Shown: positions 1,228 to 55,523 of the stretch, one piece after another
How positions within the stretch are numbered: position 1 is the stretch's first letter
How the letters are laid out: each line of letters opens with the position of its first letter
Virus record (IMG/VR): IMGVR_UViG_3300027850_000169
Location: 1-64,000 of that record
DNA: 64,000 nt
Direction: 5' to 3' (one strand)
Origin: a virus
Translations under genes and position numbers: made by a program
Notes under the pieces: generated by a model
What the model was told of the DNA's origin: nothing
What the model saw: only the letters and a program-made list of their open reading frames with translations
Database searches by the model: none

Positions 1228-2004
1228 CTACTCTTGAATACTGTCAAGGATATAATCAATTTCCTCTTGCTGCAATACTTTCTTGTATTTGGGAGTTGTA
1301 GGTGCTTCAATATCTCTGTCAATACCCTGATGCCACGGCAGTCCTCCCCCCAGGTTTAAAGCTTGAAATTTGTAATTAGTGAGCATAGCGGGGTTGTAGT
1401 CAATGCCAATAAAATTACAGCACTCGGTCAATACCTCGACTTTGTGAGAGATTAGTCGTTTGTATTCAACTATCAAATGATTCTTGTTCTCAGCGTATTT
1501 CTCGGTGATTTTCATAGAATCTTTCCATCTCTGTATACAATGATTCAACGTCCACAGTCCGCCCCATACTGGATTTTCGGTCGAGTGAGTAGCTTCCCAC
1601 AAAGATGCAATCGTATCTAACCCGTTTCTAGTGATATGAATGAATTTTGCGTCAGGAACATAGCGCTGAATTTCAGGAATAAAAAATATATGTTCGGGTG
1701 TCTTTTCTACCCAGATATTTTTCTCGTTCTCAATTGTCAATCCATCCAAAACACCGATAAACCATATTATCTTTTCTTTAGTTGTCTGACATCCTCTAAA
1801 AGGTTCTAGCAACTCTGGGCGCATTATTTCAAAATAAAAGAAACGCTCCAACCGCTCAGGCAGTGTGTGCCGAAATCCATCCCATAAGGTGTATTGAAAA
1901 ATCTTAGTTTCTGGAAATGTATTGATTTCTGGATGCGCGGCTAATAAGCTTTGAAAAATTGTCGTGCCACTGCGAGGACATCCGACTAAAAAGAATCGTT
2001 GCAT
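1228..2004 (-). CDS. Sulfotransferase (Sulfotransfer_3-like)
   Basis: 5'-PAPS-binding loop VGCPRSGTT, EKTP motif, 3'PB region HITRNGLDTIAS. Confidence 0.9.
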   Translation of the reverse strand: MQRFFLVGCPRSGTTIFQSLLAAHPEINTFPETKIFQYTLWDGFRHTLPERLERFFYFEIMRPELLEPFRGCQTTKEKIIWFIGVLDGLTIENEKNIWVEKTPEHIFFIPEIQRYVPDAKFIHITRNGLDTIASLWEATHSTENPVWGGLWTLNHCIQRWKDSMKITEKYAENKNHLIVEYKRLISHKVEVLTECCNFIGIDYNPAMLTNYKFQALNLGGGLPWHQGIDRDIEAPTTPKYKKVLQQEEIDYILDSIQE

Positions 2005-2038
2005 GATACAATTTTAATAACATTAAAACAATAATATC

Positions 2039-2890
2039 ATGCCTAGAACCGCTACTAAACAATCAATCCTTGAAAGAACGTTGATTCCATTACCATTGAA
2101 TCGAGACAGGCTATCAATGGCAACAATCGTAGAGCGAGAAAAACTACGGCACGACATGGTGCTACCCGATGCTGTTGAAGACCGATTCCGCCGCATTGAG
2201 TGTGAGTATGCAGCACGAGCTAGATTGGCTGTTCACAACCTGCACTACAGGCAAAAGATTCTGTTGTACGGAGTCCCTGGTTGTGGGAAAACCCTTGGAG
2301 CCGAGCGTCTAGCATGGAATACTGGCTTAACACTGGTTAAAGTGCAATTTGACTCAATTTTATCATCGTTTTTAGGAGATACAGCCAAGAATCTAAGAAA
2401 GGTTTTTGACGAGATTAGCGAAACTCCATGCGTTTTGTTTTTTGATGAGTGTGATTCTATCCTCAGAACAAGAGAAGACAATAAAGACGTTGGCGAGGTT
2501 AAGCGAATAGTTAATACTTTCTTGCAAGTTTTAGACGAATACAATCCCGACAATGGGTTGATTGTGATGGCAACCAACTTGACCAAATCTTTAGATTCGG
2601 CGGTTTGGCGACGATTTGACGACGTGATTGAGCTACCAAAACCGAGCAAGCGTGAAGTTCAATTGCTACTGGTGCATACGTTGCAAGTTTCTTTTCCCAA
2701 AACTCAAACGGAAGAGTTAGACTGGGATATTTTACTGCCAGAAATGGACGGATTCTCTGCCGCACAGGTCGTAAAAGTTGCTCAGAATGCTGCTAAATTT
2801 GCTATCTTGCAACATCAACTTAAAGCTGTAACTCAACCACTTTTGATGGATGCAATTCAAGAAATTAAGGAAATGCCAAGTCATGAATAA
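2039..2890 (+). CDS. AAA+ ATPase (type usually paired with an S8 peptidase)
   Basis: Walker A GVPGCGKT, Walker B LFFDE, ATN..LDSAVWRRFD second region of homology. Confidence 0.9.
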   Translation: MPRTATKQSILERTLIPLPLNRDRLSMATIVEREKLRHDMVLPDAVEDRFRRIECEYAARARLAVHNLHYRQKILLYGVPGCGKTLGAERLAWNTGLTLVKVQFDSILSSFLGDTAKNLRKVFDEISETPCVLFFDECDSILRTREDNKDVGEVKRIVNTFLQVLDEYNPDNGLIVMATNLTKSLDSAVWRRFDDVIELPKPSKREVQLLLVHTLQVSFPKTQTEELDWDILLPEMDGFSAAQVVKVAQNAAKFAILQHQLKAVTQPLLMDAIQEIKEMPSHE

Positions 2891-3665
2891 TCCTCCCAAA
2901 GTCTCAGTCGTCATCCCAGTTTACAACCGCGCGCGTTACCTTGAAACCGCCATCGAAAGCGTCATCTGGCAAACAGACAAAAACTGGGAACTGATAATTT
3001 CTGATGATGGTTCCACAGACGGGAGCTTAGAGATTGCTCAGAACTTCGCGGAGCATGACTCCAGAATTCGGGTATTGACTAACCCCAGCAGACCAGCAGA
3101 TGACGCGAACAGAGGCGCTGCAAATGCGCTGATTGCGGGGTTTAACGCGGCGCGTGGGGAATATATCGGACAACTCGACAGCGATGATTTACTGGAACAA
3201 CAGGCAATCGAGTTGACAGTCGCAGCGCTTGACAATAATCCCGACTGGGGGATGGTTTATAGCAATTATCTGGATATCAGTGAGAATGGGGAGAAGTTGC
3301 GACCGGGCTGGCGGTGTTCTATTCCGTACTCATTCACTGGACTATTGATGGCGTTTATGACTTTTCATTTTAGGATGATTCGTAAGACTGCCTATTTACA
3401 AGTTAATGGATTCGATGTAAATACAGATAGAATTGAGGATTATGACTTGTGTTTGAGATTATCCGAAGTTATTGAAATTGGGAAAGTTGAGGATTTTTTG
3501 TATCAGTATAGACGGCATCCTGCATCGTTGATGTATCTGAAAAACCTTGAGTTAATCTTGTTAGCAAGAGATGCAGTAGAGCGGGCAATGTCGCGACGAG
3601 GGATGCGCGATACTCACAGACTTAGAATTGAATTTAATCCTAAGTTTATCGTTGAATTAGTTTAG
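2883..3665 (+). CDS. Glycosyltransferase family 2
   Basis: VSVVIPVYN, DDGSTD, LDSDD, EDYDLCLRL; ATG at 2883 overlaps the ATPase stop. Confidence 0.92.
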   Translation: MNNPPKVSVVIPVYNRARYLETAIESVIWQTDKNWELIISDDGSTDGSLEIAQNFAEHDSRIRVLTNPSRPADDANRGAANALIAGFNAARGEYIGQLDSDDLLEQQAIELTVAALDNNPDWGMVYSNYLDISENGEKLRPGWRCSIPYSFTGLLMAFMTFHFRMIRKTAYLQVNGFDVNTDRIEDYDLCLRLSEVIEIGKVEDFLYQYRRHPASLMYLKNLELILLARDAVERAMSRRGMRDTHRLRIEFNPKFIVELV

Positions 3666-4363
3666 TAGCCACCGTTGTCAACAAATGGCGTATAAGCAGG
3701 GTATGTGGGATTCTCTTGGTAGTCTTGAGAATTCGGTGATTTCTTTTTCTTTTTACTATTACTTGCGTCGTATTTAGCGGCAATCTCTTTTTCAACGTAG
3801 AAAGCCATTGACATTAGGCGACCAAGAGGCCCCCACAATGCACGCGAATTGGCAAAAGCGTCTGTCAATCCCAAGTTGTTTGTTATCACTGTTTCCGATT
3901 CTAGCGGTCTTTGTAAATCGGTTAGGATAGTCTGCCCAAAACCAGGTCGTAGGCATGGAGTGATGGAATCATGATAACTACTGTCATACCGGTTGTCGTA
4001 TCGAATTAACCCCTCCCGCCATCTAGTAGTTACAAGAGTTGGTGTATTAGAGGAACCTAACAAAGCTAAGTTTATGCCGTTTACCTTAGCAGGGTAAATT
4101 TTCTTATTCTGCAAGGTAACAAGAGGAATATTAAACGATACATCATTTGCCGATTTTGAAACAACGTCTCGTTGTTCAATGAACCACACAAAGCTCTTGC
4201 TAGTGGTCAAGAAGGTTTGACACTGACCGGGTAGGAGCATTGCCCAAAACCCAGTACCAGGAACATCTATCCTGACTCTATGCCAAAGCCCCGGAAGGAC
4301 AGACCCTACTATTCCAAGCGAACCAATGGATTGTATTAAATCAGCTTCTGCGAAATACAACAT
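3662..4363 (-). CDS. Hypothetical virion-associated protein
   Basis: 233-aa ORF in the tail operon, 3 nt from the upstream gene. Confidence 0.6.
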   Translation of the reverse strand: MLYFAEADLIQSIGSLGIVGSVLPGLWHRVRIDVPGTGFWAMLLPGQCQTFLTTSKSFVWFIEQRDVVSKSANDVSFNIPLVTLQNKKIYPAKVNGINLALLGSSNTPTLVTTRWREGLIRYDNRYDSSYHDSITPCLRPGFGQTILTDLQRPLESETVITNNLGLTDAFANSRALWGPLGRLMSMAFYVEKEIAAKYDASNSKKKKKSPNSQDYQENPTYPAYTPFVDNGGY

Positions 4364-4366
4364 AGG

Positions 4367-7189
4367 TTACGAGTTGCGTAATAATTGACCAAAAACAGGA
4401 AAGCTTGAAGTAGTGACACGATACCACTTTGTTAGGACTCCATCTTCTTTCAATCCATTGCCTATCATTTGCTCTTTGTGAGATGTAAATAAAATTTCAG
4501 GCCCAACTCCCCCTCCTGAACCATAAGAAGGGCTCTGTCCACCAGTGAAAGAGCCGTTCCACCCGAAGGATGATGCTTCCATAATTCTTTCAGCCCTTCC
4601 TTGCCTACCAAACCTATTGTCCAAATCATAAATCATGTTAACTCTATGTACTCCACTCTGGCTAATAGATACTCCGACAGGAAGTACGGTAGTCAACGGA
4701 TTGAATTGCCGAGGCATTTCTTGCAGTTGATAATGTATCCAATCCATTGCCGTCCAGTCTTGTTTGTTCTTGTAAAGCAATCCGCCTATGGAAATATCAT
4801 TATTCGTAAAAAGAGTCGTAGGGTTGGTAGTGTACGGTAACCCAATAAACATTTGCTGGGTTAGGGCAGGAAGACCACCAAAGCTTGCGAATTCAGGATT
4901 AGTCGTTTTGAAAGTTAGATTTCTATCGTCTGTCCGATAGTCACGTATTAAAAATTTATTATTAAACTCACTGTCGGGATTGTTAGCAGTAAGTGTAATA
5001 CTCTCACCTCTATCATATATTTCATCACCAACTATAGTCAAGGTTTTATCTTCTTTGGTAGGCAATCTTACTTTAAAAGACCGGCAACGACTCCAGCAGT
5101 CTTTGACGATTCGTGGATGCTTTTCGTTTGTTTGTGCGGGAGTCTGGGGGAATCCCGATTCGTACATTCCACTGGACAAGGGAAATATACCGAGTGCTTG
5201 TTGTAGAGATATGTCATTGCCATAATTAGAACCAAATCCCGTTCTTGGGCTGCCAAATCCCTGAGAGGCTAGTCGTATTGGAAGTGGAAATGTTTTTGGT
5301 TCTTCATATATTCTTTCCCCTCCATAGAAAATATCAACATAAGCAAAATCCTTGTCGATAGATAGTGTTCCATGTGTTAAATCTAGACTAAACGGATCTA
5401 CAATGAAATGGCTGGTATACGTCTGAATGAAATTGCGAGATTTTCCAGATTCAAAATTAGTTCCAAAACTAAAACTACCTCCGCCCAATACTCTATGCTC
5501 TTCTATTACAGCGGCAAACTCAAAAGGCAATTCTATTTCTATCGGCTCATAATCTTGCTTATGACAAACAAGTAAAACTTTTGCTTTTCTACCATAAGCA
5601 TCAACTAAAAACCTACTAGCGTCGGATGGTGGTGCGGGCGGGTATCCACCCCCGCTATTTGGTATTTCACAACCGTAGGGATTCGCTGAACCAAGTCTGG
5701 TGACAGTGGAACCGCCGTCGATATTCCAGTAAGTTCCAAATGTTTGAAAAAAGCTTGTAGCTAATCCTATATTTTCCTTGTGCCCTTGCCAACAAACAAA
5801 CATTCCACTGGCAGATGAGTAGTGAGCATATCTATCTAGCGCTCCAGCGCTAGCGCCAATGCCTCTAGACCAAAACCATTGGTCGTTGGGGACGACATCT
5901 CCACATCCGACACCAGCAGCGTCTAGAGCTGAAACATTGACCCCAATCGCCCCCGCAGACATAGTTGCAATATATTGATTATCCCAACCGTAACGATACC
6001 AAGCGTTATGCTCTAGCGTCCCGGGCCAAGGACTGACGCCTGCAACGAACTCTGGAGGAAAGCTTGTTGGAACTGCGTTTATGTCTCCATCAAATGCCGC
6101 CCACAAGGATCTGTAAAAAAAGGTTCTATGTGAATTGTCGGAATAAAGGTCTTGTATTCCACGCCACTTCTTAATCCCTCCCCAGTAGCCTATTTTCCCA
6201 CCCAAGTCCGGGAAAGAATTTTTTAAAAAATAACTTAAAGGTTCAAGTCCGAAGCTTGCACTTGGATATAAACCCGCAGAAATACTACCTTGGCGATACA
6301 TTTCCATACAGAAACCAGGCCCTTGCTCAGTATTTTGGTTTTCTGGGTACATACTTGGGCCAGAAACTTGATATATTTTCCCACTACCACTGTCTACAAG
6401 TTCGGTTGCACTTTGATTTAAACTTCCAATGTAAAACCACACAATCACCGAACCTTCTGAACCCGAAGACACTGCGGCATTATCTCTTGCCGCGCCAGTG
6501 CTTCCGCCGCCAGTTGGTACAATTAAACACTCAGGTCTTAATTTATTATCTAAAGCGTCTTGAGCGGTTTTGTAGTTACCCAAATCATCAAGCCTTTCTG
6601 CGAATCCGTAAGCATAGCTATTAAAAGCAGTGTTAGAGTAAACTCCTCGTATTGAATCCCAACTGGTTTCCTCTACTCCTTGCGCCGCCCCGTTCCCCGT
6701 GAGTTTTTCTTTGTTTGGTTTAATCCTGGAGTATAAAAAACAGGATGTGACAGGCCAATACTCTTCATCAGCAGGTAGTTTTGGTACTGGCTTCGGAATA
6801 ACTATATCTCGTCCTTTTGGCTTAACATCAATCACAACCTGACCGTTAGGTGCGAAGAACGAACGCACCTTCTGACCATTGCGAACGTTGCCGTTACTCA
6901 AACTTTTGCCAAGTAATTTCTTGCCGTCGCTACCATCAACATTAAAAGCATCAGCTTCAGCGTTGAACTCACGAACTCTGTAGCTAGTGTCAGGTTTCAG
7001 TGTTTCCAATGGATTTGCTGGTTTGCGCTCACGACGTTCAGCCGCATCACACCGCAACCGCTCAACAGCAGCTTTTCGAGCATCTGCTTTGTCCCTTTGT
7101 TCTAAAGCCCACAGGTTCGCCTCTTGAATCGACATTGGTTCATCGGTTTCAATTGCGGGGCGGCCGTCAATGTCGTTAATATCTGGCAT
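4367..7189 (-). CDS. Large putative tail/baseplate protein
   Basis: 940 aa, Gly/aromatic-rich, in the tail operon; N-terminal module resembles the adjacent 97-aa ORF. Confidence 0.6.
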   Translation of the reverse strand: MPDINDIDGRPAIETDEPMSIQEANLWALEQRDKADARKAAVERLRCDAAERRERKPANPLETLKPDTSYRVREFNAEADAFNVDGSDGKKLLGKSLSNGNVRNGQKVRSFFAPNGQVVIDVKPKGRDIVIPKPVPKLPADEEYWPVTSCFLYSRIKPNKEKLTGNGAAQGVEETSWDSIRGVYSNTAFNSYAYGFAERLDDLGNYKTAQDALDNKLRPECLIVPTGGGSTGAARDNAAVSSGSEGSVIVWFYIGSLNQSATELVDSGSGKIYQVSGPSMYPENQNTEQGPGFCMEMYRQGSISAGLYPSASFGLEPLSYFLKNSFPDLGGKIGYWGGIKKWRGIQDLYSDNSHRTFFYRSLWAAFDGDINAVPTSFPPEFVAGVSPWPGTLEHNAWYRYGWDNQYIATMSAGAIGVNVSALDAAGVGCGDVVPNDQWFWSRGIGASAGALDRYAHYSSASGMFVCWQGHKENIGLATSFFQTFGTYWNIDGGSTVTRLGSANPYGCEIPNSGGGYPPAPPSDASRFLVDAYGRKAKVLLVCHKQDYEPIEIELPFEFAAVIEEHRVLGGGSFSFGTNFESGKSRNFIQTYTSHFIVDPFSLDLTHGTLSIDKDFAYVDIFYGGERIYEEPKTFPLPIRLASQGFGSPRTGFGSNYGNDISLQQALGIFPLSSGMYESGFPQTPAQTNEKHPRIVKDCWSRCRSFKVRLPTKEDKTLTIVGDEIYDRGESITLTANNPDSEFNNKFLIRDYRTDDRNLTFKTTNPEFASFGGLPALTQQMFIGLPYTTNPTTLFTNNDISIGGLLYKNKQDWTAMDWIHYQLQEMPRQFNPLTTVLPVGVSISQSGVHRVNMIYDLDNRFGRQGRAERIMEASSFGWNGSFTGGQSPSYGSGGGVGPEILFTSHKEQMIGNGLKEDGVLTKWYRVTTSSFPVFGQLLRNS

Positions 7190-11606: not shown

Positions 11607-12426
11607 TAGATACGACGCTCTGAAAAGATTACATTATTTGTTCAGTGACAAGAGGTGGATATTTGCTAAAACTATGCCGCAAAACCCGCATGAGTACACA
11701 TTGAGAAAGCACTGGAAAAACGAAGATGATTTCGTTGAAGCGGTTCAACTGATTCGAGATTATGGATATGTTATCAAGTTTCAAGGAAGAAAATATACTC
11801 AGTTTAACGTTCTAGGACATTTCTATTGGTCTATGGGTGCGCCGCTTCCCGTGACAATACTAATCAATCGAGCTTGTATTGATAAAGACGCAAAAGCTCC
11901 CTATGATGATATTTCTAATTCTTATGACGATTGGTTTTTAAAGCCAGAATACGAACGAGAGAACGTCAATCTTACAAAACTGCTAAAACCTTATATTGGC
12001 GGTAAACTTTTAGATGTTGGCTGCGGCACTGGGCTATTGCTTGATTTGTTAAACGTTTCTTTTGACTTGTATACAGGCGTTGACCCCAGCAGGATGATGC
12101 TAGACAAATTTAAAAATAAACATCCATGCCACAAAATCATTCAGTCTAAATATGAAGACTTTCCCTATGAAGGATTTGATTCAATTGTTTCGCTATACGG
12201 GTCTTTCAACTATTGTGAGCCGTCATCCGCAATTCAGGTAATTAATCAGTTGTCGCCAGGGGGTAAATATTTTTTAATGCTGTTTAAAGAAGATTATAAT
12301 CCCGTAACTCATAAATTAGCTAATTGTTCAATCCCTTACTATAAGCTAAGTAATTACAGCTTTCCAGTAGGAAGTGTTTTTGCCGAATTTACTAACTATA
12401 TCGTGGTAACGGGAGTCAAAGAATAA
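11593..12426 (+). CDS. Class I SAM-dependent methyltransferase with an extra ~95-aa N-terminal domain
   Basis: LLDVGCGTG, GVDPSRMML, LSPGGK; N-domain WIFAKTMPQNPHEY. Confidence 0.85.
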   Translation: MSTDNRYDALKRLHYLFSDKRWIFAKTMPQNPHEYTLRKHWKNEDDFVEAVQLIRDYGYVIKFQGRKYTQFNVLGHFYWSMGAPLPVTILINRACIDKDAKAPYDDISNSYDDWFLKPEYERENVNLTKLLKPYIGGKLLDVGCGTGLLLDLLNVSFDLYTGVDPSRMMLDKFKNKHPCHKIIQSKYEDFPYEGFDSIVSLYGSFNYCEPSSAIQVINQLSPGGKYFLMLFKEDYNPVTHKLANCSIPYYKLSNYSFPVGSVFAEFTNYIVVTGVKE

Positions 12427-13562
12427 TGCCTACCTATTACGGCAATAAGACCGTTTTTGAGATGGGCTTAGAGCGCATTGAATATTTGTTTGATGAGTTT
12501 GAAAATATTGCAGTTAATTTCTCAGGGGGGAAAGATTCAACAGTTACATTGAACTTAGCTTTAATGGTAGCGGAAAAAAAAGGAAGATTACCACTAAAAG
12601 TATTATTTATTGACCAAGAGGCTGAATGGGATTGCACTATTGATTACATGAAATCGGTAATGTACGACACTAGGATTGAGCCATACTGGTTCCAAATTCC
12701 CTTTAGAATTTTTAACGCTACTTGCAGCGAGGACCCCTGGCTAAATGCTTGGGACATCAACCCTGAAATTACATGGATTAGGGAAAAAGACCCTATTGCT
12801 ATTCACGAAAGCCCTGCAAAAACTGATAGATTTGAAAAGTTGTTTGATGATTTAGGGAACTGGATATTTAAAGGGAAGTCTTATGCCTATCTTTCTGGAG
12901 TCAGGTGTGAAGAATCACCCGCAAGGCGGGCGGGCTTGACGACCTTTGCGACCTATAAATGGATTACTTGGGGAAAAGTAGAGAATAAGAAGCGCAATCA
13001 ATTCGTTTTCTATCCGTTATACGACTGGTCTTATAAAGATATCTGGAAATCCATTCATGATAATAAATGGGAATATTGTGTTTTATATGATTATATGTAT
13101 CAGTACGGTATCTCACCTATAAAAATGAGATTGTCAAACGTCACCCATGAGACAGCCGTTGACAATTTATTCTTTCTTCAGGAAATTGAAGGGGATTTGT
13201 GGACAAGGTTAACACAAAGATTAAGGGGAATTAATACGGCTGGCATTCTAAAAGCTGACTGGAAATGTCCTAAAGAATTACCGTTTATGTTTGAAGATTG
13301 GCATGAGTATCGAGACTATTTATTAGAAAATTTAATAACAAATCAGAGTGTTAAAAAAATAATGCTCAAACAGGTAGAATCGGATAAAAGGCAATACATC
13401 CCAGAGATTCAAGATAAAGTCTGCAAGTATCATATTGATATGATTTTGAAAAATGATTATCATGGAACAAAAGCAACGACATTCGCAGCTTCTCATCTTA
13501 AAGAAAGAACAAATACAAACAGAGACCGTGAAAAAAGAGATAGAGAATTATTTAAAAAATAG
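12426..13562 (+). CDS. ibrA: PAPS-reductase-family protein, IbrA-like
   Basis: FSGGKDS PP-loop, FIDQEAE, GVRCEES, YPLYDW, KMRLS, EIEGDLW. Confidence 0.8.
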   Translation: MPTYYGNKTVFEMGLERIEYLFDEFENIAVNFSGGKDSTVTLNLALMVAEKKGRLPLKVLFIDQEAEWDCTIDYMKSVMYDTRIEPYWFQIPFRIFNATCSEDPWLNAWDINPEITWIREKDPIAIHESPAKTDRFEKLFDDLGNWIFKGKSYAYLSGVRCEESPARRAGLTTFATYKWITWGKVENKKRNQFVFYPLYDWSYKDIWKSIHDNKWEYCVLYDYMYQYGISPIKMRLSNVTHETAVDNLFFLQEIEGDLWTRLTQRLRGINTAGILKADWKCPKELPFMFEDWHEYRDYLLENLITNQSVKKIMLKQVESDKRQYIPEIQDKVCKYHIDMILKNDYHGTKATTFAASHLKERTNTNRDREKRDRELFKK

Positions 13563-40224: not shown

Positions 40225-41527
40225 TTGACATCCTCACCGACCTGAAGGCACGGTGATTCCTAAGACTCACAACTTAGGTTTCTGCTTCATAGCACCAGCC
40301 TTAACAGATTTACTCTGTTCAGGTCTTACAGTCGCTCCACAGACTGACACGGCAAGCCCTGCCGCCAAAATATTCTTTGCTGCATTGATATCTCGGTCAT
40401 GGTTTGTCCCACACTTAGGACACTCCCACTCTCGAATATTCAAAGGCAGCTTTTCCACAACGTGACCACAATGCCCACACATCTTAGAACTAGGAAACCA
40501 TCGGTCAATCTTGACAAAAGTACGACCATACCAGCCGCACTTGTATTGGAGTTGCCTGACCAGTTCCCCCCAGCTAGCATCACTGATAGCAAGGGCAAGT
40601 TTGTGGTTCTTGACCATATTCTTCACAACCAAATCCTCAACGGCGATGGTTTGGTTTTCACGCACCAGTCGAGTTGTCAGTTTGTGAAGAAAATCCTTTC
40701 TAGAGTCGCTAATTTCTTGGTGAACTCTAGCAACTTTAAGTCTAGCTTTGTGTCGATTGTTGCTACCTTTGACCTTGCGGGACAAACGCTTCTGGGCTTT
40801 CTTGAGCTTGCGACGTTTAGTTTTGAAGCATTTAGGGTTTGCAACTTTCTCGCCATTGCTCAGGGTAATCAAGCTAGTGATACCCAAATCCAAACCAATC
40901 TGATTAGTAGATTCTTGCCATGTTTCAATTTCAGTGTCAACCAACAAAGAAACAGTCCATCTTCCAGAGGGTGCAAGTTTTACTGTAATAGTAGATGGCT
41001 CAGTATCAGGTGGAATCTCCCGACTCCATCTGATATCCAACGGCTCAATACACTTTGCTAAGTAAACTTGTCCATCTTTCCACTTGAAAGCGGACTTGGT
41101 AAATTCTGCATTGCCACCATTATGCTTTTTCTTGAAGTTAGGGTATTTTGCCCGACCCGCAAAGAAGTTAGTAAAGGCGGATTGCAGATGCCTCAAGCCC
41201 TGCTGTACTGGCACACAGCTAACTTCGTTGAGAAATTGCAAGTCTTCTTGCTTTTTCCACTCGGTCAACATCGCAGAAGTTTCAGTGTATCCGACTCGCT
41301 CTTGCCTTTCATACCAAGCCTCCGTTCTAAGAGCAAGGGCTTTGTTGTAGACTAAACGAGCGCAACCCATCGTTCTTCTCAGCAAGTTTTCTTGCTCAGG
41401 AGTTGGATAGAATCGGTACTTGAATGCTTTCTGTGTCATACTTCACAGTATAGCATCTATTTCGTGAAAGTGTAAACTTTAATATAAAGCCGTCCTAGAA
41501 GGACGGGGTTTCAGACCTATTTTTGTA
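40225..41527 (-). mobile_element. tnpB-only IS200/IS605 (IS1341-type) element
   Basis: Target TCAT; LE guide GAAA at +16 plus ccgtcct/aggacgg hairpin; RE GAAT..hairpin..TCAA. Confidence 0.88.
40267..41439 (-). CDS. tnpB: RNA-guided endonuclease TnpB
   Basis: AFKYRFYPT HTH, GLDLG, AVEDL, CGHC/CPKC, DRDINAA. Confidence 0.97.
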   Translation of the reverse strand: MTQKAFKYRFYPTPEQENLLRRTMGCARLVYNKALALRTEAWYERQERVGYTETSAMLTEWKKQEDLQFLNEVSCVPVQQGLRHLQSAFTNFFAGRAKYPNFKKKHNGGNAEFTKSAFKWKDGQVYLAKCIEPLDIRWSREIPPDTEPSTITVKLAPSGRWTVSLLVDTEIETWQESTNQIGLDLGITSLITLSNGEKVANPKCFKTKRRKLKKAQKRLSRKVKGSNNRHKARLKVARVHQEISDSRKDFLHKLTTRLVRENQTIAVEDLVVKNMVKNHKLALAISDASWGELVRQLQYKCGWYGRTFVKIDRWFPSSKMCGHCGHVVEKLPLNIREWECPKCGTNHDRDINAAKNILAAGLAVSVCGATVRPEQSKSVKAGAMKQKPKL

Positions 41528-46686: not shown

Positions 46687-46718
46687 TTAAAAGTAAAAAT
46701 TTGTAATTGAGATTGTTT

Positions 46719-47057
46719 ATGACTAATCTAACAGAGTTTGACTTTAACACTCAACAAGTTCGAGTAATTACTATTGAAGGACTGCCTTGGTTTGTGGCTA
46801 ATGACGTTTGCGTCATTTTAGGTCTTGAAAATGTTGGTCAAGCATTGAGCCGCTTAGATGAAGACAAGAAAAGTATTGCTTCTGTATACACCCTTGAAGG
46901 TAATCAAGATATGTCGGTAATTTCAGAGTCTGGAATGCTTGCCCTAGTTTCCTCAAATGGCAAACCAGATGCTAAAGAGTTCCGTAGATGGGCGGTAGAT
47001 GTAGTCTTTCCGGTTGTATTCAGAACTGACAGTTATTCCCTTGAGTGGCTTGAGTGA
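46719..47057 (+). CDS. BRO-N domain protein
   Basis: VRVITIEGLPWFVANDVC.ILGL, ISESG, KPDAKEFRRW. Confidence 0.9.
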   Translation: MTNLTEFDFNTQQVRVITIEGLPWFVANDVCVILGLENVGQALSRLDEDKKSIASVYTLEGNQDMSVISESGMLALVSSNGKPDAKEFRRWAVDVVFPVVFRTDSYSLEWLE

Positions 47058-47124: not shown

Positions 47125-47258
47125 TTGACGCATTCTAATTAACCTGCTATAATTAAATCAATCGATACATTTACAGCAATTGCGGTGAGTAGCGGTTTTA
47201 GTGTGTTGTTTTCATGTGAAGTGGTTTTTATCCCAAGCCTGCGAAAGCGGGTTTTTTT
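47125..47258 (+). ncRNA. Candidate ~100-nt small RNA upstream of the CRISPR leader, promoter to terminator
   Basis: TTGACG-17-TATAAT with TG extension; terminator cctgc-GAAA-gcggg-T7; no ORF inside. Confidence 0.6.
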
Positions 47259-47272
47259 ATCAGAAAATTGGG

Positions 47273-47428
47273 TTGACAGGATTCGTATCTTCGATTAGAA
47301 TAGACTTAACCGAACCACGAAAACTAAATAATATTCAATCTTTCCATAACACTTTTGCAATTGCGGGAGTCGATTTGCCGCAACCCAGCCTTGAAAACTA
47401 GACGCACCAACGATTTCACACGTCGGCG
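47273..47428 (+). promoter_or_regulatory. CRISPR promoter and leader
   Basis: TTGACA-17-TAGAAT; two GAAAACTA leader motifs (aaccacgaaaacta, agccttgaaaacta). Confidence 0.75.
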
Positions 47429-48571
47429 GTCGCAATCAACGCCACTCCCTACTAGGGATTGAAACTTGTAGCGTTGCTGGGTAACAGCCATCTGGTAAGG
47501 TCGCAATCAACGCCACTCCCTACTAGGGATTGAAACTCGCTCAAGCCCTCAATTTTCCCAGCCGTTCCTCGTCACAATCAACGCCACTCCCTACTAGGGA
47601 TTGAAACTACGATTTAGCTTTCACGGCTGGCAACAATTTGTGTCACAATCAACGCCACTCCCTACTAGGGATTGAAACCTCGGATTTAAAGCAATTAATT
47701 CCTGTATCAATGGTCACAATCAACGCCACTCCCTACTAGGGATTGAAACCTCAAACATCGTTTTCATGACCAACAGCAATTTGTGTCGCAATCAAGCTCC
47801 ACTCCCTACTAGGGATTGAAACGCCGATTTTGTATTCAATTCTGTCGTTAAATTGAGTCGCAATCAAGCTCCACTCCCTACTAGGGATTGAAACTCTTGC
47901 CAAACAGCAGATTCTCAAACTGCATCCCGGTCGCAATCAAGCTCCACTCCCTACTAGGGATTGAAACGCCCGATTCAGCAACTGCTGGCGCTTCTCCCTC
48001 GTCACAATCAAGCTCCACTCCCTACTAGGGATTGAAACCGCTGGGATGAAAGCGCTAGCCCCCTACTAGGGATTGAAACACAATCGAGCTAAGCCCCTAC
48101 TAGGGATTGAAACCATGAGTGCAGAATAATCACAACCGACCGCTACTGCCGCAATCAAGCTAAACCTCTACTAGAGATTGAAACTGAGAAATTAAAAATG
48201 GCACAAAATACAACAATATCGCAATCAAACCAAACCCCTACTAGGGATTGAAACGCAATAAACCTAAACCCCTACTAGGGATTGAAACTTGCTCCTGTAG
48301 TCGGTGGCGGTGGAAGAAAGGCAGTCGCAATTGAGCTAAGCCCCTACTAGGGATTGAAACCTGATGTCAACTGTTCTTCACTAGCAGATACCGAGTCGCA
48401 ATTGAGCTAAGCCCCTACTAGGGATTGAAACGCAATCAAAGTAAACCCTACTAGGGATTGAAACAAACGAGAGTGCGACTTTAAGATTTACCACAATCTT
48501 GTCATAATCAAAGCAAACCCCTACTAGGGATTGAAGCGCAATAAACTCCACTCCCTACTAGGAATTAAAAC
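47429..48571 (+). CRISPR. CRISPR array: 19 repeat units, 13 full spacers (33-36 nt), 1 short spacer, 4 spacer-less junctions
   Basis: Repeat GTCRCAATCAACGCCACTCCCTACTAGGGATTGAAAC (37-38 nt) that degenerates away from the leader. Confidence 0.97.
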
Positions 48572-48579
48572 GAAAGATT

Positions 48580-50415
48580 TCACCGGGATAATAAATCTAT
48601 CCTTTTTGTTTTTGCCTGTAACGCCCACTTAGACAAACCAATTGAAACTTCCTTCTGTAGAAGTTCAAGGCTTAATTCGCCCCATTTTTTCGCTTTCTTT
48701 GTTGCTACCAATCCTGCGAACAGTGCTAGTTCATCGTTGACCGCCGCATTGATATCACGGTGACACTTCCAGCCGCAGGTACATTCATACAATTTAATTT
48801 TAGGGTCACTCATTGATGCCATCTTGTTTAGGCAGACTGGGCAAGTTTGCGAAGTGTAGGCAGCCGGATTTCTCAAAAAAGTACGTCCGTCACGTGCAGA
48901 TTTCTGTTCTAGTTGTGCAATGAAATCGCCGTGTCCCGCGTCAGATAACGACTTTGCCAACCCAGTTTTTTGAGCTTTCCGGTTTTTCTTGTAGCCACCT
49001 TTCTCTGTATCTTCTTGTGGCTTAGCTTGTGCTCGAAGATTTTGTGATTGCAGCCCGTTTTCACAGGAAATAAATTGATAGTTGGTTACAATCTCAGAGC
49101 TAAGCTTTTGGTTGAATCCCTTGCGTTGACGTTTAATCTTCTCGTGTAGTTTACTAATCCGATTCTGAATCTTTTTCTGTTCACTGGAAAGTGCTTGACA
49201 GTTCCACTTTAACTTTTGCCAGTACATCCCTCCGATTAGGGCAATACCTTCAGCTTCACTTTTGATTTCACAAAGCTTTTTGGCTTTGTCAGGCGAGCAA
49301 TTAATAAGAGCTTTGATGTCTTTGTGTCGCCGTTCAGGATGATTTAACCAGAGAATCAGTCGGTGAGTCATTTTGTTAGCTAGTTCTTTCTGAAGCTCCG
49401 CTAATTTAATTTGAGCGTTCCGGTAGTAACGCGGATTTCCGTACTGCTTGCCGTTGCTTAAACTGATAAAGCTGTCTAGTCCAGGGTCGATTCCTATCGA
49501 CTTAGTTGTTTGTTTAATGCGTCGCCCCCGAACCAATTCGCCCGTTAGTTGGACATAGAAGCCTGAAGCGTATTGACATATTTTGAAGGCGGCAATTTCT
49601 GGAATTGTGCCGTCTGGATTTTTCCACCGACGTGCTAGTCCTTTTAGCCGCAATTCACGAAGACCTGGTATACCTATTAGAGATTGAGAGTTTGCCTTGG
49701 GAACGATGACACCTTTTGGGTTGTTGTGAACCAGGGTTGCAACCTTGTCACGTCTGCGTTTAAACCGAGGCCGCCCCTTTTTTGCACCATTCTGAACCCC
49801 GGCTCTTGACTTTGTGTACTCTTGCCAGCTAGTATCCAATCCAGCAAGAACTCCAGAGCGAAACTTGTACGGCATTTCTGTCATGAATTCGCGGTGTGCT
49901 GTTAGGTTGTTTCCTTTGATGACTTGACCTAACCCGCCCGCCTGTTGCAAACCCGGCTTAGAAATCAACGTTTCGCTGAAATCAACCGACAAAGGGCAAC
50001 TGTAACCAGTAACCGACCCATGTTCTGAGTTCTGCCAGCCCCAAGATTCTTTCTTCTCTGCTGGCTGCGGAACTTTTACCCGCTTCAACTCTCGGATATA
50101 CCAATGAGACTTATCATCGTAAATGACACTGTAGGGCGCTTGGATTATTGACTTACCTTTGTCTTTTGAAACGATTGCACCTTCCTCATCTACAAAGTGA
50201 CTCCAATACTTCCAAGGTAATCGACAGCATGGAGCGTACCCGCCACTCTCTTTACCATCTAAACCGTTCGTAGCTTTGTAGTAGTAATAATTTGTTTCAA
50301 AATCTTCTAAGGCTGACAATCCACAATTCCACACAGACTTAGAAATTTGCAACCACTTTTCTATTTTTTCTTTCTGTTCAAGAGATGGAAAACATTTAAA
50401 TTCTAGTGTGAGCAT
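48580..50415 (-). CDS. c2c8: CRISPR-associated TnpB-derived type V effector, C2c8 (V-U2)-like, 611 aa
   Basis: Start MLTLEFK; PCC, PRFK.RRDKV.TLV, RuvC-I GIDPG, HEKI.RQRKG.N, RuvC-II ISCEN, AKP...GYKKN...K.GL, TSQTCPVC, RuvC-III HRDINAA; stop codon 8 bp from the array. Confidence 0.75.
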   Translation of the reverse strand: MLTLEFKCFPSLEQKEKIEKWLQISKSVWNCGLSALEDFETNYYYYKATNGLDGKESGGYAPCCRLPWKYWSHFVDEEGAIVSKDKGKSIIQAPYSVIYDDKSHWYIRELKRVKVPQPAEKKESWGWQNSEHGSVTGYSCPLSVDFSETLISKPGLQQAGGLGQVIKGNNLTAHREFMTEMPYKFRSGVLAGLDTSWQEYTKSRAGVQNGAKKGRPRFKRRRDKVATLVHNNPKGVIVPKANSQSLIGIPGLRELRLKGLARRWKNPDGTIPEIAAFKICQYASGFYVQLTGELVRGRRIKQTTKSIGIDPGLDSFISLSNGKQYGNPRYYRNAQIKLAELQKELANKMTHRLILWLNHPERRHKDIKALINCSPDKAKKLCEIKSEAEGIALIGGMYWQKLKWNCQALSSEQKKIQNRISKLHEKIKRQRKGFNQKLSSEIVTNYQFISCENGLQSQNLRAQAKPQEDTEKGGYKKNRKAQKTGLAKSLSDAGHGDFIAQLEQKSARDGRTFLRNPAAYTSQTCPVCLNKMASMSDPKIKLYECTCGWKCHRDINAAVNDELALFAGLVATKKAKKWGELSLELLQKEVSIGLSKWALQAKTKRIDLLSR

Positions 50416-50474
50416 AATTGAAAATCTTTTGCAAAGGGCTTTACAAACCCAGTATATCATGTTATCTTAGTAAT

Positions 50475-50668
50475 ATAAAGGTAGGGAGCTTTCACCCCAT
50501 TACCTGTGAGCTTTGACTCAAGAAAGCGAGTGTAGCGAAAGCAGCTTGAAGCTAGTCGTAAGACAGCAATCCTGAAAAATCGAAAGATGCGGGGAAACCC
50601 AAACAGGATAATTATCTAGTAGGGCAAAAGAGTGGGAGTAATCTCGCTCTTTTGTTTTGGATTGAAAC
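50475..50668 (+). ncRNA. Candidate tracr/omega-like scaffold RNA ending in the CRISPR repeat 3' end
   Basis: TTTACA-17-TATCTT (TG-extended) promoter; five GNRA hairpins; anti-repeat CTAGTAGGG; terminal GGATTGAAAC. Confidence 0.7.
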
Positions 50669-50694
50669 TGAAATTGAAATTGAAATTGAATATC

Positions 50695-50723
50695 TTGACA
50701 AGATTAACAGTATCGTTTATAAT
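50695..50723 (+). promoter_or_regulatory. Consensus sigma70 promoter
   Basis: TTGACA-17-TATAAT. Confidence 0.85.
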
Positions 50724-53906: not shown

Positions 53907-55523
53907 ATGACATTAACACCTCGAACAGTTCCAGAATTAATTGCAGAAATTGATATCCTTACCTCTGAAATTCAAGAATTGTATTTGCAGGGAAATCCAT
54001 TCGTTGTTGGATGGAGTGGAGGCAAAGATAGCACAACCGTGCTTCAACTTATATGGAATGCTATTAAGCGACTACCAAAAGAACAGCGCAAATACCCTCT
54101 TTATGTGATTACTAATGACACTTTAGTTGAAAATCCAATTATTTCCGCCCATGTTAGGAATGCTTTGAAGTTGATAGATGCGGCAGCAAAAGAGCAAAAT
54201 ATACCTGTTATGACTAAAATGACAACCCCTGAAATAAAGAATTCTTTTTGGGTTTGTTTAATTGGGAAAGGTTATGCCGCACCACGACAAGGGTTTCGTT
54301 GGTGTACTGACAAGCTTAAAATTAGACCCGCTGAAAAATTTATCAACGAAGTGGTTACAATCGAAGGTCAAATGATACTTGCTCTTGGTGTTCGAGAGGC
54401 TGAAAGTGCGACGCGAGCTGCGAGTATGGAAAAACAACGTGAATTTAAAGTAAGTGAAAGATTAAATAAGAATCAACTACACGTTGGTTCACTTACTTAC
54501 AGTCCAATTCGGAGTTGGCGCACGGATGAAGTCTGGCTTTATTTAATGCAGTACGAAAATCCTTGGGGATGCGACAACAAGGATTTGTTTGCAATATATC
54601 GAGGCGCAACAGCGGATAACGAATGCCCTCTAGTTGTTGATGCTTCCACTCCTAGTTGCGGAAGTTCTCGTTTTGGTTGCTGGACGTGTACTCTTGTATC
54701 TAAAGACAAGTCTACAGAAGCAATGATTCAAAACGATGAAGACAAAGAATGGATGCAGGTTCTACTTGATATTCGCAATGAGTTAGATGTTCGTGATGAC
54801 GAAGGAAAACACGCTGACCATGACAAAAGAGACTGGAAAGGCAACTCAGGAAAAGTAAGGTTTTACACTAAATTTTACAATGCGAGGGAAGAAGATAATT
54901 CTACTATGCTTAAGCCTGTTCCAGGGCCCTACATCAAATTTTGGCGAGAACACTGGCTGAGGCGAGTCTTGGAAGCACAAACTCAAATACGCAAAACCGC
55001 ACCAGAAGAAATGCGCGACATCACCTTAATCACCCCAGAAGAACTTAGCGAAATCCGCCGCATTTGGAGAGAAGAGAAACACGAATTTGACGATAGTTTG
55101 CCCCGGATTTACGAACAGGCTACAGGAGAGTCGTTTGCAGACATTTCTTGTACAGATGAACGAAACGCTTTGGGTAAAGAAGAATGGGATATCTTGTCTG
55201 AAATATGCGAAGAAGATGAAACGCATTTTCACTTGATAGCAAGCCTCCTCAACGAAACAAATAAAACACATTTAAAGACGCGCCGCAAAGATGTATTCAA
55301 AGCATTGGAAAAATGCTTTGACGCTAATTCCCGCTCTATGGAGGAAGCGGTTGCAAGCAGTCATGAAAAAAACAAGTTGACCAAGACTGTTGAATCCGTA
55401 AAAAAAGAAGGTCTTGGCGAACTCAATAAAGTTAAACAAATGTTAAACAAAGATACTCCCAATAGCAAACAGCTTTCTTGGGCTGACGTTAAATTCGCAC
55501 CGTCTGTCGAACAATTACAATAA
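53907..55523 (+). CDS. dndC: DNA phosphorothioation sulfurtransferase DndC
   Basis: WSGGKDS, DTLVENP, FWVCLIGKGY.AP..FRWCT..LKI.P, ECPLVVD.STPSCG.SRFGCWTCT. Confidence 0.9.
   Translation: MTLTPRTVPELIAEIDILTSEIQELYLQGNPFVVGWSGGKDSTTVLQLIWNAIKRLPKEQRKYPLYVITNDTLVENPIISAHVRNALKLIDAAAKEQNIPVMTKMTTPEIKNSFWVCLIGKGYAAPRQGFRWCTDKLKIRPAEKFINEVVTIEGQMILALGVREAESATRAASMEKQREFKVSERLNKNQLHVGSLTYSPIRSWRTDEVWLYLMQYENPWGCDNKDLFAIYRGATADNECPLVVDASTPSCGSSRFGCWTCTLVSKDKSTEAMIQNDEDKEWMQVLLDIRNELDVRDDEGKHADHDKRDWKGNSGKVRFYTKFYNAREEDNSTMLKPVPGPYIKFWREHWLRRVLEAQTQIRKTAPEEMRDITLITPEELSEIRRIWREEKHEFDDSLPRIYEQATGESFADISCTDERNALGKEEWDILSEICEEDETHFHLIASLLNETNKTHLKTRRKDVFKALEKCFDANSRSMEEAVASSHEKNKLTKTVESVKKEGLGELNKVKQMLNKDTPNSKQLSWADVKFAPSVEQLQ

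What the first reader, a model, noticed from the sequence alone, without database searches (positions are those of the whole stretch)
47273..50700. Phage-borne minimal type V system: C2c8-like nuclease between a convergent CRISPR array and a divergent scaffold RNA
Seen: a 611-aa TnpB-fold protein with all three RuvC acidic residues (GIDPG, CEN, HRD). It has two insertions relative to the ordinary TnpB at 40267: one in the N-terminal lobe and about 90 aa after RuvC-I. Its stop is 8 bp from a leader-bearing array, it has no IS ends, and no cas1/2/4/6 occurs in the window. Known: C2c8 (V-U2) is a poorly characterised cyanobacterial TnpB-to-Cas12 lineage, and this repeat resembles cyanobacterial type I-D-class repeats (…CCCTAxTAGGGATTGAAAC). 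Inference: a compact anti-competitor CRISPR system that borrows host adaptation machinery. The array is transcribed toward the effector's 3' end, an unusual layout.
Basis: partly seen in the sequence, partly recalled or inferred. Interest (0 to 1): 0.92.

Follow-up and report, generated by a model that had tools for sequence, protein, structure and literature searches.

The report
Phage-borne C2c8 CRISPR system with tracrRNA
A 92-kb cyanophage carries a compact, catalytically intact type V-U2 (C2c8) CRISPR nuclease with its own leader-bearing array, and comparison with related loci supports a guide-scaffold RNA upstream; the kind is known, also in a phage, but has not been tested in any paper I found.

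Summary
Window 48580-50415 (-) encodes a 611-aa TnpB-fold protein. It scores above NCBI's curated cut-off for C2c8, the type V-U2 effector, and keeps the RuvC triad and zinc finger. Eight bases past its stop lies a 19-unit CRISPR array (47429-48571, +) with promoter and leader. The record is a complete 91.7-kb phage with no cas1, cas2, cas4 or cas6.

New here:
- Eight related loci have the array co-directional with the gene. Only this phage lineage has it inverted.
- The 254-nt block upstream is conserved in architecture across five lineages. It reads best on the + strand as a ~185-nt tracrRNA with an anti-repeat that tracks the local repeat. This includes a compensatory change between two 98%-identical sibling phages.
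- Those siblings share no spacers.
- One spacer matches, 32 of 34, a small gene in integrase- or primase-bearing islands of cyanobacterial genomes. The same flank occurs in the source-like metagenome.

A phage-borne V-U2 system was already reported in cyanophage CL131 (2018), so this is a new member of a known kind. "Anti-competitor" is unsupported. Expression, PAM and cleavage are untested.

The parts
47273..47301 (+). Promoter-like site of the CRISPR array (TTGACA, 17 nt, TAGAAT)
   Evidence: Consensus scan, 11 of 12 matches. It lies 127 nt before the first repeat.
47302..47428 (+). CRISPR leader
   Evidence: The last ~60 nt align with the leaders of C2c8-linked arrays in L004, L006, L007, L008 and L027. 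They share a CGCAA...CCT(G/T)GAAAAC...TTTCA motif at a fixed distance from repeat 1.
47429..48571 (+). CRISPR array: 19 repeat-like units of 37 nt ending ...GGGATTGAAAC, and 13 spacers of 33-36 nt. Repeat subtypes occur in blocks, and the distal units are degenerate or fused.
   Evidence: Orientation rests on the leader, the promoter, the gradient of repeat decay away from the leader, and the GAAAC end.
47537..47570 (+). Spacer S2, the only spacer with a match outside the phage
   Evidence: 32 of 34 identical at four sites in two cyanobacterial genomes. The match covers the 3' end of a 115-119-aa ORF next to a D5/DUF5906 primase-helicase or a phage-integrase gene. The same 5' flank appears as loose ends in metagenome runs X1 and X4.
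48580..50415 (-). c2c8 (type V-U2 effector), 611 aa plus stop
   Evidence: NF038192 394.6 bits, cut-off 350. Pfam OrfB_IS605 and Cas12f1-like TNB. AF2 pLDDT 80.3. Nearest solved folds are Cas12p, TnpB and LaTranC.
50451..50479 (-). Promoter-like site for c2c8 (TTTATA, 17 nt, TATACT, with TG)
   Evidence: It overlaps the divergent promoter-like site listed next.
50440..50468 (+). Promoter-like site for the scaffold RNA (TTTACA, 17 nt, TATCTT, with TG)
50475..50658 (+). Predicted tracrRNA, about 185 nt. Elements: 5' hairpin 50480-50504 with CUUUC in the loop (50489-50493); a three-way junction (stems 50569-50574 and 50604-50609); anti-repeat 50610-50624; terminator hairpin 50625-50654 followed by a U-run.
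   Evidence: The + strand folds at -57.6 kcal/mol (z -3.2); the - strand at -44 (z -1.25). The anti-repeat forms 15 bp with one bulge with repeat nt -19 to -5; 3 of 1000 shuffles do as well. The same architecture stands upstream of c2c8 in L004, L005, L006, L007, L008, L011 and L027. Ends are inferred, not measured.
50659..50668 (+). Repeat-end tag GGATTGAAAC just after the terminator. It marks the edge of the block conserved with sibling phages.
   Evidence: The joint 50669/50688 holds 4,204 extra bases in run X2. L011 has the same tag in the same place.

Best explanation
[quoted passage not shown] Three promoters drive three products:
- the C2c8 nuclease, on the - strand;
- a tracrRNA of about 185 nt, transcribed divergently from an overlapping promoter;
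- a pre-crRNA, read from its own leader on the + strand towards the 3' end of c2c8.

The tracrRNA anti-repeat (50610-50624) pairs with repeat nt -19 to -5. By analogy with Cas12p, the closest solved relative, the last four repeat bases would pair with the loop of the tracrRNA 5' hairpin as a pseudoknot. The ribonucleoprotein would then cut DNA that matches the spacer next to a PAM, using the intact RuvC site.

The phage has no adaptation genes. Spacers must therefore come from host Cas1-Cas2 acting in trans, or from recombination with host arrays that carry almost the same repeat.

Shown: the protein family, the intact catalytic residues, array and leader orientation, array turnover between siblings, and repeat/anti-repeat complementarity that follows the local repeat.

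Inferred: transcription, crRNA processing, cleavage, the PAM, the source of spacers and the biological target. The one matched spacer points to integrative islands in cyanobacterial hosts.
For: Family: NF038192 over the cut-off; clade of 28 long C2c8 proteins with 100% support, separate from IS-type TnpBs; D310, E452, D554 and the zinc finger conserved.

Array linkage: every one of eight other loci with a downstream array has it 138-818 nt after the stop.

Leader: homologous to the leaders of those arrays.

tracrRNA:
- The hairpin plus repeat-like stretch upstream of the gene recurs in five lineages that share about 30-45% protein identity.
- Folding is strand-biased.
- Cognate duplexes are 15-16 bp in six of seven loci, with at most 4 of 1000 shuffles as good.
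- The sibling phage L004 has a different repeat core. Its anti-repeat carries the matching A-to-G change. Its repeat pairs at -15.3 kcal/mol with its own anti-repeat and at -9.9 with the window's.
- The mismatches are G.U wobbles that work only for + strand RNA.

Analogy: Cas12p is the best sequence and fold match. It uses a tracrRNA with a pseudoknot to the repeat's AAAC end.

Turnover: the window and L004/L010 are 97.8% identical over the gene and scaffold but share no spacer.

Host link: a repeat 35 of 37 identical occurs 406 times in one cyanobacterial genome that gave no C2c8 match (E <= 1e-70). Very high depth on the distal repeats in the same metagenomes points the same way.
Against: - No RNA data: no RNA run holds the locus.
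- I found no paper showing that a V-U2 effector cleaves DNA.
- Only one of 13 spacers has a match. That match has two mismatches, and the four flanks give no consistent PAM.
- The upstream 'anti-repeat' could be a decayed repeat copy, which would also track the local repeat.
- The candidate pseudoknot motif is imperfect in this phage: CUUUC against a repeat ending in AAAC.
- The repeat has the hairpin and 8-nt handle typical of Cas6-processed class 1 repeats, so host complexes could use the crRNAs.
- The distal half of the array is decayed, and the inversion places it against the gene's end.
- RNAalifold on the divergent RNAs gave no usable consensus.
Confidence: 0.62

Rival explanations
1. 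The array mainly or only feeds the host's class 1 (type I-D or III) effector complexes after Cas6 processing. The phage thereby redirects host immunity. C2c8 either sits beside the array by history or uses a different guide.
For: The repeat ends in a short hairpin plus the handle ATTGAAAC. It is 35 of 37 identical to a repeat present 406 times in a cyanobacterial genome that gave no C2c8 match (E <= 1e-70). One internal repeat variant changes both sides of the repeat's own hairpin (unit at 48148-48184). Spacer S2 is antisense to the mRNA of its target ORF, as type III needs. The literature notes shared 37-bp repeats across I-D, III, V-K and V-U2 arrays in cyanobacteria (bioRxiv 10.1101/2021.02.06.429022).
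Against: The gene-array link is conserved in all related loci. The anti-repeat next to c2c8 follows the local repeat, including a compensatory change between siblings. Both uses could coexist.
Confidence: 0.15
2. The upstream RNA is a complete omega-RNA-like single guide: scaffold, internal stem, repeat-end tag, then a fixed guide read from the adjacent DNA. C2c8 would work as a TnpB-like nuclease with that guide, either alone or alongside crRNAs as a transposon-CRISPR intermediate.
For: GGATTGAAAC follows the last stem at 50659-50668, and L011 has the same tag. The block conserved with sibling phages ends one base after the tag. LaTranC and TnpB are among the best fold matches. An earlier first-stage note read the RNA in the same way (e1-6063187).
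Against: The stem is followed by a strong U-run, so most transcripts should end before the tag. The supposed guide differs completely between 98%-identical siblings, and nothing matching it was seen apart from its own site. The Lyngbya, Planktothrix and L005 loci lack a tag.
Confidence: 0.12
3. The locus is a decaying remnant captured from a host, with no present function for the phage.
For: The distal half of the array is degenerate, with spacerless fused repeats. The C-terminal tail of the ORF reads through repeat-like sequence (families D6 and D9). No phage target was found.
Against: The ORF is intact with all catalytic residues, and it is 98-99% identical in sibling phages from other samples. 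The nine leader-proximal repeats are clean. Gene, scaffold and leader are kept while the spacers differ.
Confidence: 0.08

Closest known systems
Type V-U2 CRISPR-Cas (C2c8), e.g. the Lyngbya sp. PCC 8106 locus (L007)
   Same: The same NCBIfam family and the same long-form clade. Single effector plus a 37-nt-repeat array, with no other cas genes. Shared leader motif and shared upstream hairpin plus anti-repeat architecture.
   Different: Only 31-33% protein identity. The array is inverted and abuts the stop codon instead of lying about 140 nt downstream in the same direction. The locus is carried by a phage. A repeat-end tag follows the scaffold RNA.
V-U2 locus of cyanophage vB_AphaS-CL131 (PMC6293099)
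   Same: A phage-borne C2c8 (450.8 bits) next to a small array, with no other cas genes and a Bro-N gene nearby. Its one matched spacer hit a primase pseudogene in a cyanobacterial genome.
   Different: Short-form effector of 466 aa on the other side of the tree, 32% identical over half the protein. Unrelated 36-nt repeat, co-directional array. That paper reported no tracrRNA.
Cas12p ('Cas12 hacker'), PDB 9jfs/9jg3
   Same: Best sequence and fold match. Phage-encoded, 500-700 aa, uses a tracrRNA, and the repeat's AAAC end forms a pseudoknot with the tracrRNA 5' region.
   Different: Similarity is limited to the RuvC half (E 3e-16; 16-18% identity; TM about 0.5). It is a different family. Dependence on thioredoxin and a GTN PAM are unknown here.
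IS200/IS605 TnpB with omega-RNA (e.g. ISDra2; the window's own copy at 40267-41439)
   Same: WED-RuvC-zinc-finger core, with TM 0.74 when normalised to TnpB length. The RuvC motifs align.
   Different: About 210 extra residues. It fails the IS200_TnpB cut-off (122 against 425 bits). It is single-copy and array-linked. The guide scaffold lies upstream on the opposite strand, not at the 3' end of the gene.
ICP1 phage CRISPR-Cas against the Vibrio PLE island (recalled from the literature, cited within PMC6293099)
   Same: A phage-encoded CRISPR system whose spacer matches a host-resident integrative element rather than another phage.
   Different: ICP1 carries a full type I-F system with adaptation genes. 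Here one spacer matches imperfectly, and the island has not been characterised.

Membership tests
Type V-U2 / C2c8 (NCBIfam NF038192) | Whole-protein score above the curated cut-off (350 bits) | tested here: met
   394.6 bits, E 7e-118. The window's ordinary TnpB scores 108 bits as a control.
Type V-U2 / C2c8 (NCBIfam NF038192) | TnpB-like RuvC triad and zinc finger | tested here: met
   D310, E452, D554 and four Cys conserved. The AF2 model matches TnpB and Cas12 folds.
Type V-U2 / C2c8 (NCBIfam NF038192) | Adjacent CRISPR array with no other cas genes | tested here: met
   Array 8 nt from the stop. No Cas1, Cas2, Cas4 or Cas6 in the 91.7-kb genome. Homologues are array-linked.
Type V-U2 / C2c8 (NCBIfam NF038192) | Not part of an IS element (no TnpA, no IS ends, single copy) | tested here: inconclusive
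   There is one above-cut-off copy per genome beside many TnpBs, and in the tree it is separate from IS TnpBs. IS ends and TnpA were not searched for explicitly.
Type V-U2 / C2c8 (NCBIfam NF038192) | crRNA-guided nuclease activity | not testable with these tools
   No RNA run holds the locus. I found no published assay of a V-U2 effector.
Cas12p (type V-P) | Family-level sequence similarity over the whole protein | tested here: not met
   Only residues 397-553 align well (E 3e-16). Foldseek gives 16-18% identity and TM 0.50-0.58.
Cas12p (type V-P) | Activation by host thioredoxin | not tested
   No complex prediction was run. The feature is known only from bioRxiv 10.1101/2025.01.20.633832.
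IS200/IS605 TnpB | Score above the NF038281 cut-off (425 bits) | tested here: not met
   122.3 bits.
Cas12k (type V-K, CAST) | Inactivated RuvC site | tested here: not met
   The catalytic triad is intact. No Cas12k structure was among the Foldseek matches listed. Tn7 genes were not searched for.
TranC (transposon-CRISPR intermediates) | Use of both an omega-RNA-like single guide and crRNA plus tracrRNA | not testable with these tools
   The layout allows it, with a repeat tag after the scaffold, and LaTranC is a fold match. The concept is taken from Jin et al. 2025 as cited in PMC13565253.

The most novel reading that the evidence does not exclude
The phage uses C2c8 with a divergently encoded tracrRNA against integrative, satellite-like islands of its cyanobacterial host that carry an integrase or a D5-type primase. 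This would be a class 2 counterpart of ICP1 against PLE. It would renew its spacers by swapping array blocks with host arrays of nearly the same repeat. The scaffold RNA with its repeat tag might also act as a fixed single guide, making this a living transposon-to-CRISPR intermediate.
Probability: 0.2. Interest if true: 0.85.

Novelty: new member of a known kind. Interest (0 to 1): 0.6.

Why it matters
I found no experimental characterisation of subtype V-U2 in the papers searched. The CL131 paper reported no tracrRNA for it. This locus, read beside its relatives, gives a concrete and testable RNA architecture: tracrRNA position, strand, anti-repeat and a candidate pseudoknot. It also gives a 3.6-kb self-contained cassette (47.1-50.7 kb) with three promoters that can be cloned as it stands.

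At 611 aa the effector is compact, which is of interest as an editing tool. Biologically, sibling phages with identical effectors but wholly different arrays offer a way to ask how a phage without Cas1-Cas2 keeps an array current. So does the spacer that matches a host island.

Tried and rejected
**Searches that found nothing**
- Phages collection: no DNA match for the locus or the array.
- Rfam at gathering thresholds: nothing in the window.
- First 22 nt of spacers S1 and S2: no exact match in IMG/VR.
- Spacers against the phage's own genome and all fetched loci: no hit, so no self-targeting.
- Array against 401 cyanobacterial genomes: the 150 listed rows were array-to-array repeat matches and 259 further rows were not shown. 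Spacer S2, found, is the only spacer match I saw.
- No RNA holder listed for the locus.
- P0009 and P0010 (on contigs of about 93 kb): not found in IMG/VR.
- The window's major head protein has no match in the L005 virus, so the two C2c8-bearing phages are not shown to be related.
- The target ORF of S2 has no tblastn hit in the phages collection.

**Analyses that were inconclusive**
The three-sequence version was unreliable.
- The similarity of spacers S3, S5 and S6 is weak: score 8 against a null 99.9th percentile of 9. No homologue of the implied peptide occurs in the phage.

**Steps that could not be run**
Contigs of the closest homologues (66-89% identity) could not be fetched.
The coordinates were instead read.

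**Readings rejected**
- IS-borne TnpB.
- Cas12k-like (intact RuvC site).
- Member of the Cas12p family.
Full report
**What is there**

The window is the first 64 kb of a 91,696-bp IMG/VR virus record that CheckV rates as complete. It encodes a tape measure protein, a major head protein and tail fibres.

On the minus strand, 48580-50460 is an open frame of 626 aa. Homologues and the catalogued protein start at the second Met, which gives 611 aa at 48583-50415.

- Pfam finds the OrfB_IS605 and Cas12f1-like TNB domains.
- NCBIfam places the protein in V_cas_c2c8 at 394.6 bits, against a curated cut-off of 350.
- It fails the IS200/IS605 TnpB model, with 122 bits against 425.
- D310, E452, D554 and the four zinc-finger cysteines are conserved in 21 homologues.
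- They align with the catalytic residues of the phage's ordinary TnpB at 40267-41439.
- Against that TnpB, the protein has about 126 extra residues in the N-terminal lobe, 58 after RuvC-I and 27 after RuvC-II.

**The array**

From 47429 to 48571 there are 19 repeat-like units of 37 nt and 13 spacers of 33-36 nt.

- Five clean repeats of one subtype are followed by four of a second subtype, then by mixed, decayed units.
- Four of the decayed units are fused without a spacer.
- The last unit ends 8 nt before the c2c8 stop codon.
- A near-consensus promoter lies at 47273-47301.
- The 60 nt before the first repeat align with the leaders of C2c8-linked arrays elsewhere.

Promoter, leader, decay gradient and the GAAAC repeat end all say that the array is read on the + strand, towards the 3' end of c2c8. 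The whole phage genome has no Cas1, Cas2, Cas4 or Cas6.

**Relatives**

The family is rare.

- Six of 401 sampled cyanobacterial genomes carry an above-cut-off C2c8.
- About 45 clusters at 50% identity match the long form over nearly full length, among 1.84 billion representatives.
- A quick IQ-TREE tree puts the phage protein in a 100%-supported clade of 28 long proteins (595-718 aa) that includes Lyngbya sp. PCC 8106.
- Short C2c8 proteins and IS-type TnpBs fall on the other side of that tree.
- In each genome searched there is one C2c8 beside up to dozens of TnpB copies.

Eight loci outside this phage lineage have a downstream array. In every one it lies 138-818 nt after the stop and is co-directional with the gene. 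Only the window and its sibling phages L004 and L010 have the array inverted. The effector of those siblings is 98-99% identical.

**The scaffold RNA**

The 254 nt upstream of c2c8 are conserved at 97.8% with the siblings.

In gene orientation, all long-form loci examined show the same order: a strong hairpin, then a stretch that resembles the 3' half of the local repeat, then about 170 nt, then the gene's promoter. The loci are the window, L004, L005, L006, L007, L008, L011 and L027.

Read on the opposite strand, which is the window's + strand, this becomes an RNA with a 5' hairpin, internal stems, a single-stranded anti-repeat and a terminator hairpin with a U-run.

- The + strand folds at -57.6 kcal/mol (z -3.2; 1 of 200 shuffles as good). 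The - strand folds at -44 (z -1.25).
- A promoter-like site with an extended -10 lies at 50440-50468, overlapping the c2c8 promoter-like site on the other strand.
- The anti-repeat at 50610-50624 forms 15 bp with one bulge with repeat positions -19 to -5.
- Equivalent 15-16-bp duplexes exist in six of seven loci, with at most 4 of 1000 shuffles as good. L005 is weaker.

The most telling case is the sibling phage. Its dominant repeat differs in the core at two adjacent bases. Its anti-repeat carries an A-to-G change that restores one pair as G-C and leaves the other as G.U. Its repeat pairs at -15.3 kcal/mol with its own anti-repeat but at -9.9 with the window's. The wobble pairs are valid only if both RNAs come from the + strand.

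A decayed repeat copy would also resemble the local repeat, so this is not proof. The fixed position, the wobble pattern and the compensatory change make a tracrRNA the better reading.

**Analogy with the nearest solved relative**

By sequence and by fold the closest structure is Cas12p, followed by TnpB, LaTranC and Cas12f. The AF2 model has pLDDT 80.3.

Cas12p is a phage-encoded nuclease that uses a tracrRNA. The last four repeat bases, AAAC, pair with tracrRNA bases 7-10 as a pseudoknot.

In the C2c8 loci the loop of the 5' hairpin carries one of two motifs (my reading):
- GUUUC where the repeat ends in GAAAC (L007, L008, L027);
- CUUUC where it ends in GAAAG (L005, L006).

In the window the loop has CUUUC against a repeat ending in GAAAC, so the match is imperfect. 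This point is suggestive only.

**The repeat-end tag and the indel**

Directly after the terminator U-run stands GGATTGAAAC (50659-50668), the last ten bases of the repeat. L011 has the same tag in the same place.

Homology with the siblings stops one base later. They carry 4.2 kb there, encoding a ParB-N protein, a radical-SAM enzyme, QueD, FolE, QueC and an unknown protein. Metagenome run X2 confirms the joint. The far end of that insert holds a degenerate full-length repeat.

The tag may be the remnant of an array that once followed the tracrRNA. Alternatively, it may let read-through transcripts act as single guides. I cannot decide between these.

**Turnover and host link**

The window and its siblings share the gene, the scaffold, the leader and the outermost decayed units, but none of their 13 and 11 spacers. 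Their repeat subtypes also differ.

A repeat 35 of 37 identical to the window's occurs 406 times in one sampled cyanobacterial genome that gave no C2c8 match (E <= 1e-70). In the freshwater metagenomes that hold the phage, depth over the distal repeats reaches thousands, with many different flanks. That is what abundant host arrays with the same repeat would give.

Either host adaptation enzymes serve the phage leader, or blocks of array are exchanged by recombination. The block structure of repeat subtypes favours recombination somewhat.

**Targets**

Twelve spacers have no match. Spacer S2 matches 32 of 34 bases at four sites in two of the first five cyanobacterial genomes searched.

- The site is the 3' end of a 115-119-aa ORF of no known family.
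- In one genome the ORF lies next to a D5_N/DUF5906 primase-helicase beside chromosomal uvrC. In another it lies next to a phage-integrase-family gene.
- Loose ends in runs X1 and X4 carry the same 5' flank joined to S2, so the element lives in the same lakes.
- The four flanks give no PAM.
- The crRNA would be antisense to the ORF's mRNA, so the match cannot tell a DNA-targeting type V system from host type III use.

This points to host-resident mobile islands rather than to competing phages. It echoes CL131, whose only matched spacer hit a primase pseudogene (PMC6293099).

**What is known**

V-U2 is an established candidate subtype. CL131 showed a phage-borne example in 2018, and its effector passes the same cut-off. 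That effector belongs to the short form, however, and has an unrelated repeat.

Cyanobacterial V-U2, V-K, I-D and III arrays are reported to share 37-bp repeats. Adaptation in trans by I-D modules has been proposed. I found no paper that assays a V-U2 effector or defines its tracrRNA.

**Verdict**

- The C2c8 identity, the convergent array and the divergent scaffold RNA are supported.
- "Anti-competitor" is not supported.
- This is a new member of a known kind. Its value lies in a clear, clonable architecture for a subtype with no published assay that I could find.

Noticed in passing
window 47125-47258 (+): A stand-alone promoter (TTGACG, 17 nt, TATAAT, with TG) and an intrinsic terminator (47235-47254) enclose about 100 nt just upstream of the CRISPR leader, so this is a candidate small RNA. 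An earlier first-stage note (e1-6063201) proposes antisense seeds against early genes.
   Followed up: partly
window 50669/50688; L004 543-4746; L010: Sibling phages carry a 4.2-kb cassette here that the window lacks. It encodes a ParB-N protein, a radical-SAM (QueE-like) enzyme, QueD/PTPS, GTP cyclohydrolase I, QueC and a 338-aa unknown, which suggests 7-deazaguanine DNA modification. The cassette is flanked by repeat-like sequences. In the window the junction is an (ATTGAA)5 microsatellite at 50661-50690.
   Followed up: partly
window 48594-48660 (inside the c2c8 3' end): The last ~30 codons of c2c8 read through sequence that resembles a repeat end plus the start of a spacer, and also the 3' half of the tracrRNA terminator (repeat families D6 and D9). 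The inversion breakpoint may lie inside the former array.
   Followed up: no
window 47608-47641, 47750-47785, 47823-47857: Spacers S3, S5 and S6 align in register without gaps (up to 21 of 34). In one frame they translate to similar 11-residue peptides, as if taken from the same site of diverged copies of one gene. Statistically weak.
   Followed up: partly
L039 (G296:C19) 2683-6001; L040 (G296:C33) 1848-3625: The S2 protospacer sits in small islands of cyanobacterial genomes. One has a D5_N/DUF5906 primase-helicase next to uvrC; another has a phage-integrase gene. These could be satellite-like or P4-like integrative elements.
   Followed up: partly
window 48110-48391: In four freshwater metagenome runs the depth over the distal repeat variant is hundreds of times that of the rest of the phage, with many different flanking sequences. 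An abundant organism in those samples, probably the host, has arrays with this repeat.
   Followed up: partly
window 40267-41439 (-): An ordinary 390-aa TnpB with HTH, OrfB_IS605 and TNB domains. It scores 408 bits on IS200_TnpB, just under the 425 cut-off, and is closest to a TnpB of a Lyngbya genome in the tree.
   Followed up: partly
window 46707-47057 (+): A Bro-N domain gene flanks the array leader. CL131 also has a Bro-N antirepressor gene next to its C2c8 locus.
   Followed up: no
window 12426-13562 and 53907-55523 (+): Two PAPS-reductase-family genes (DndC-like or deazaguanine-pathway-like), with no partner genes identified here.
   Followed up: no
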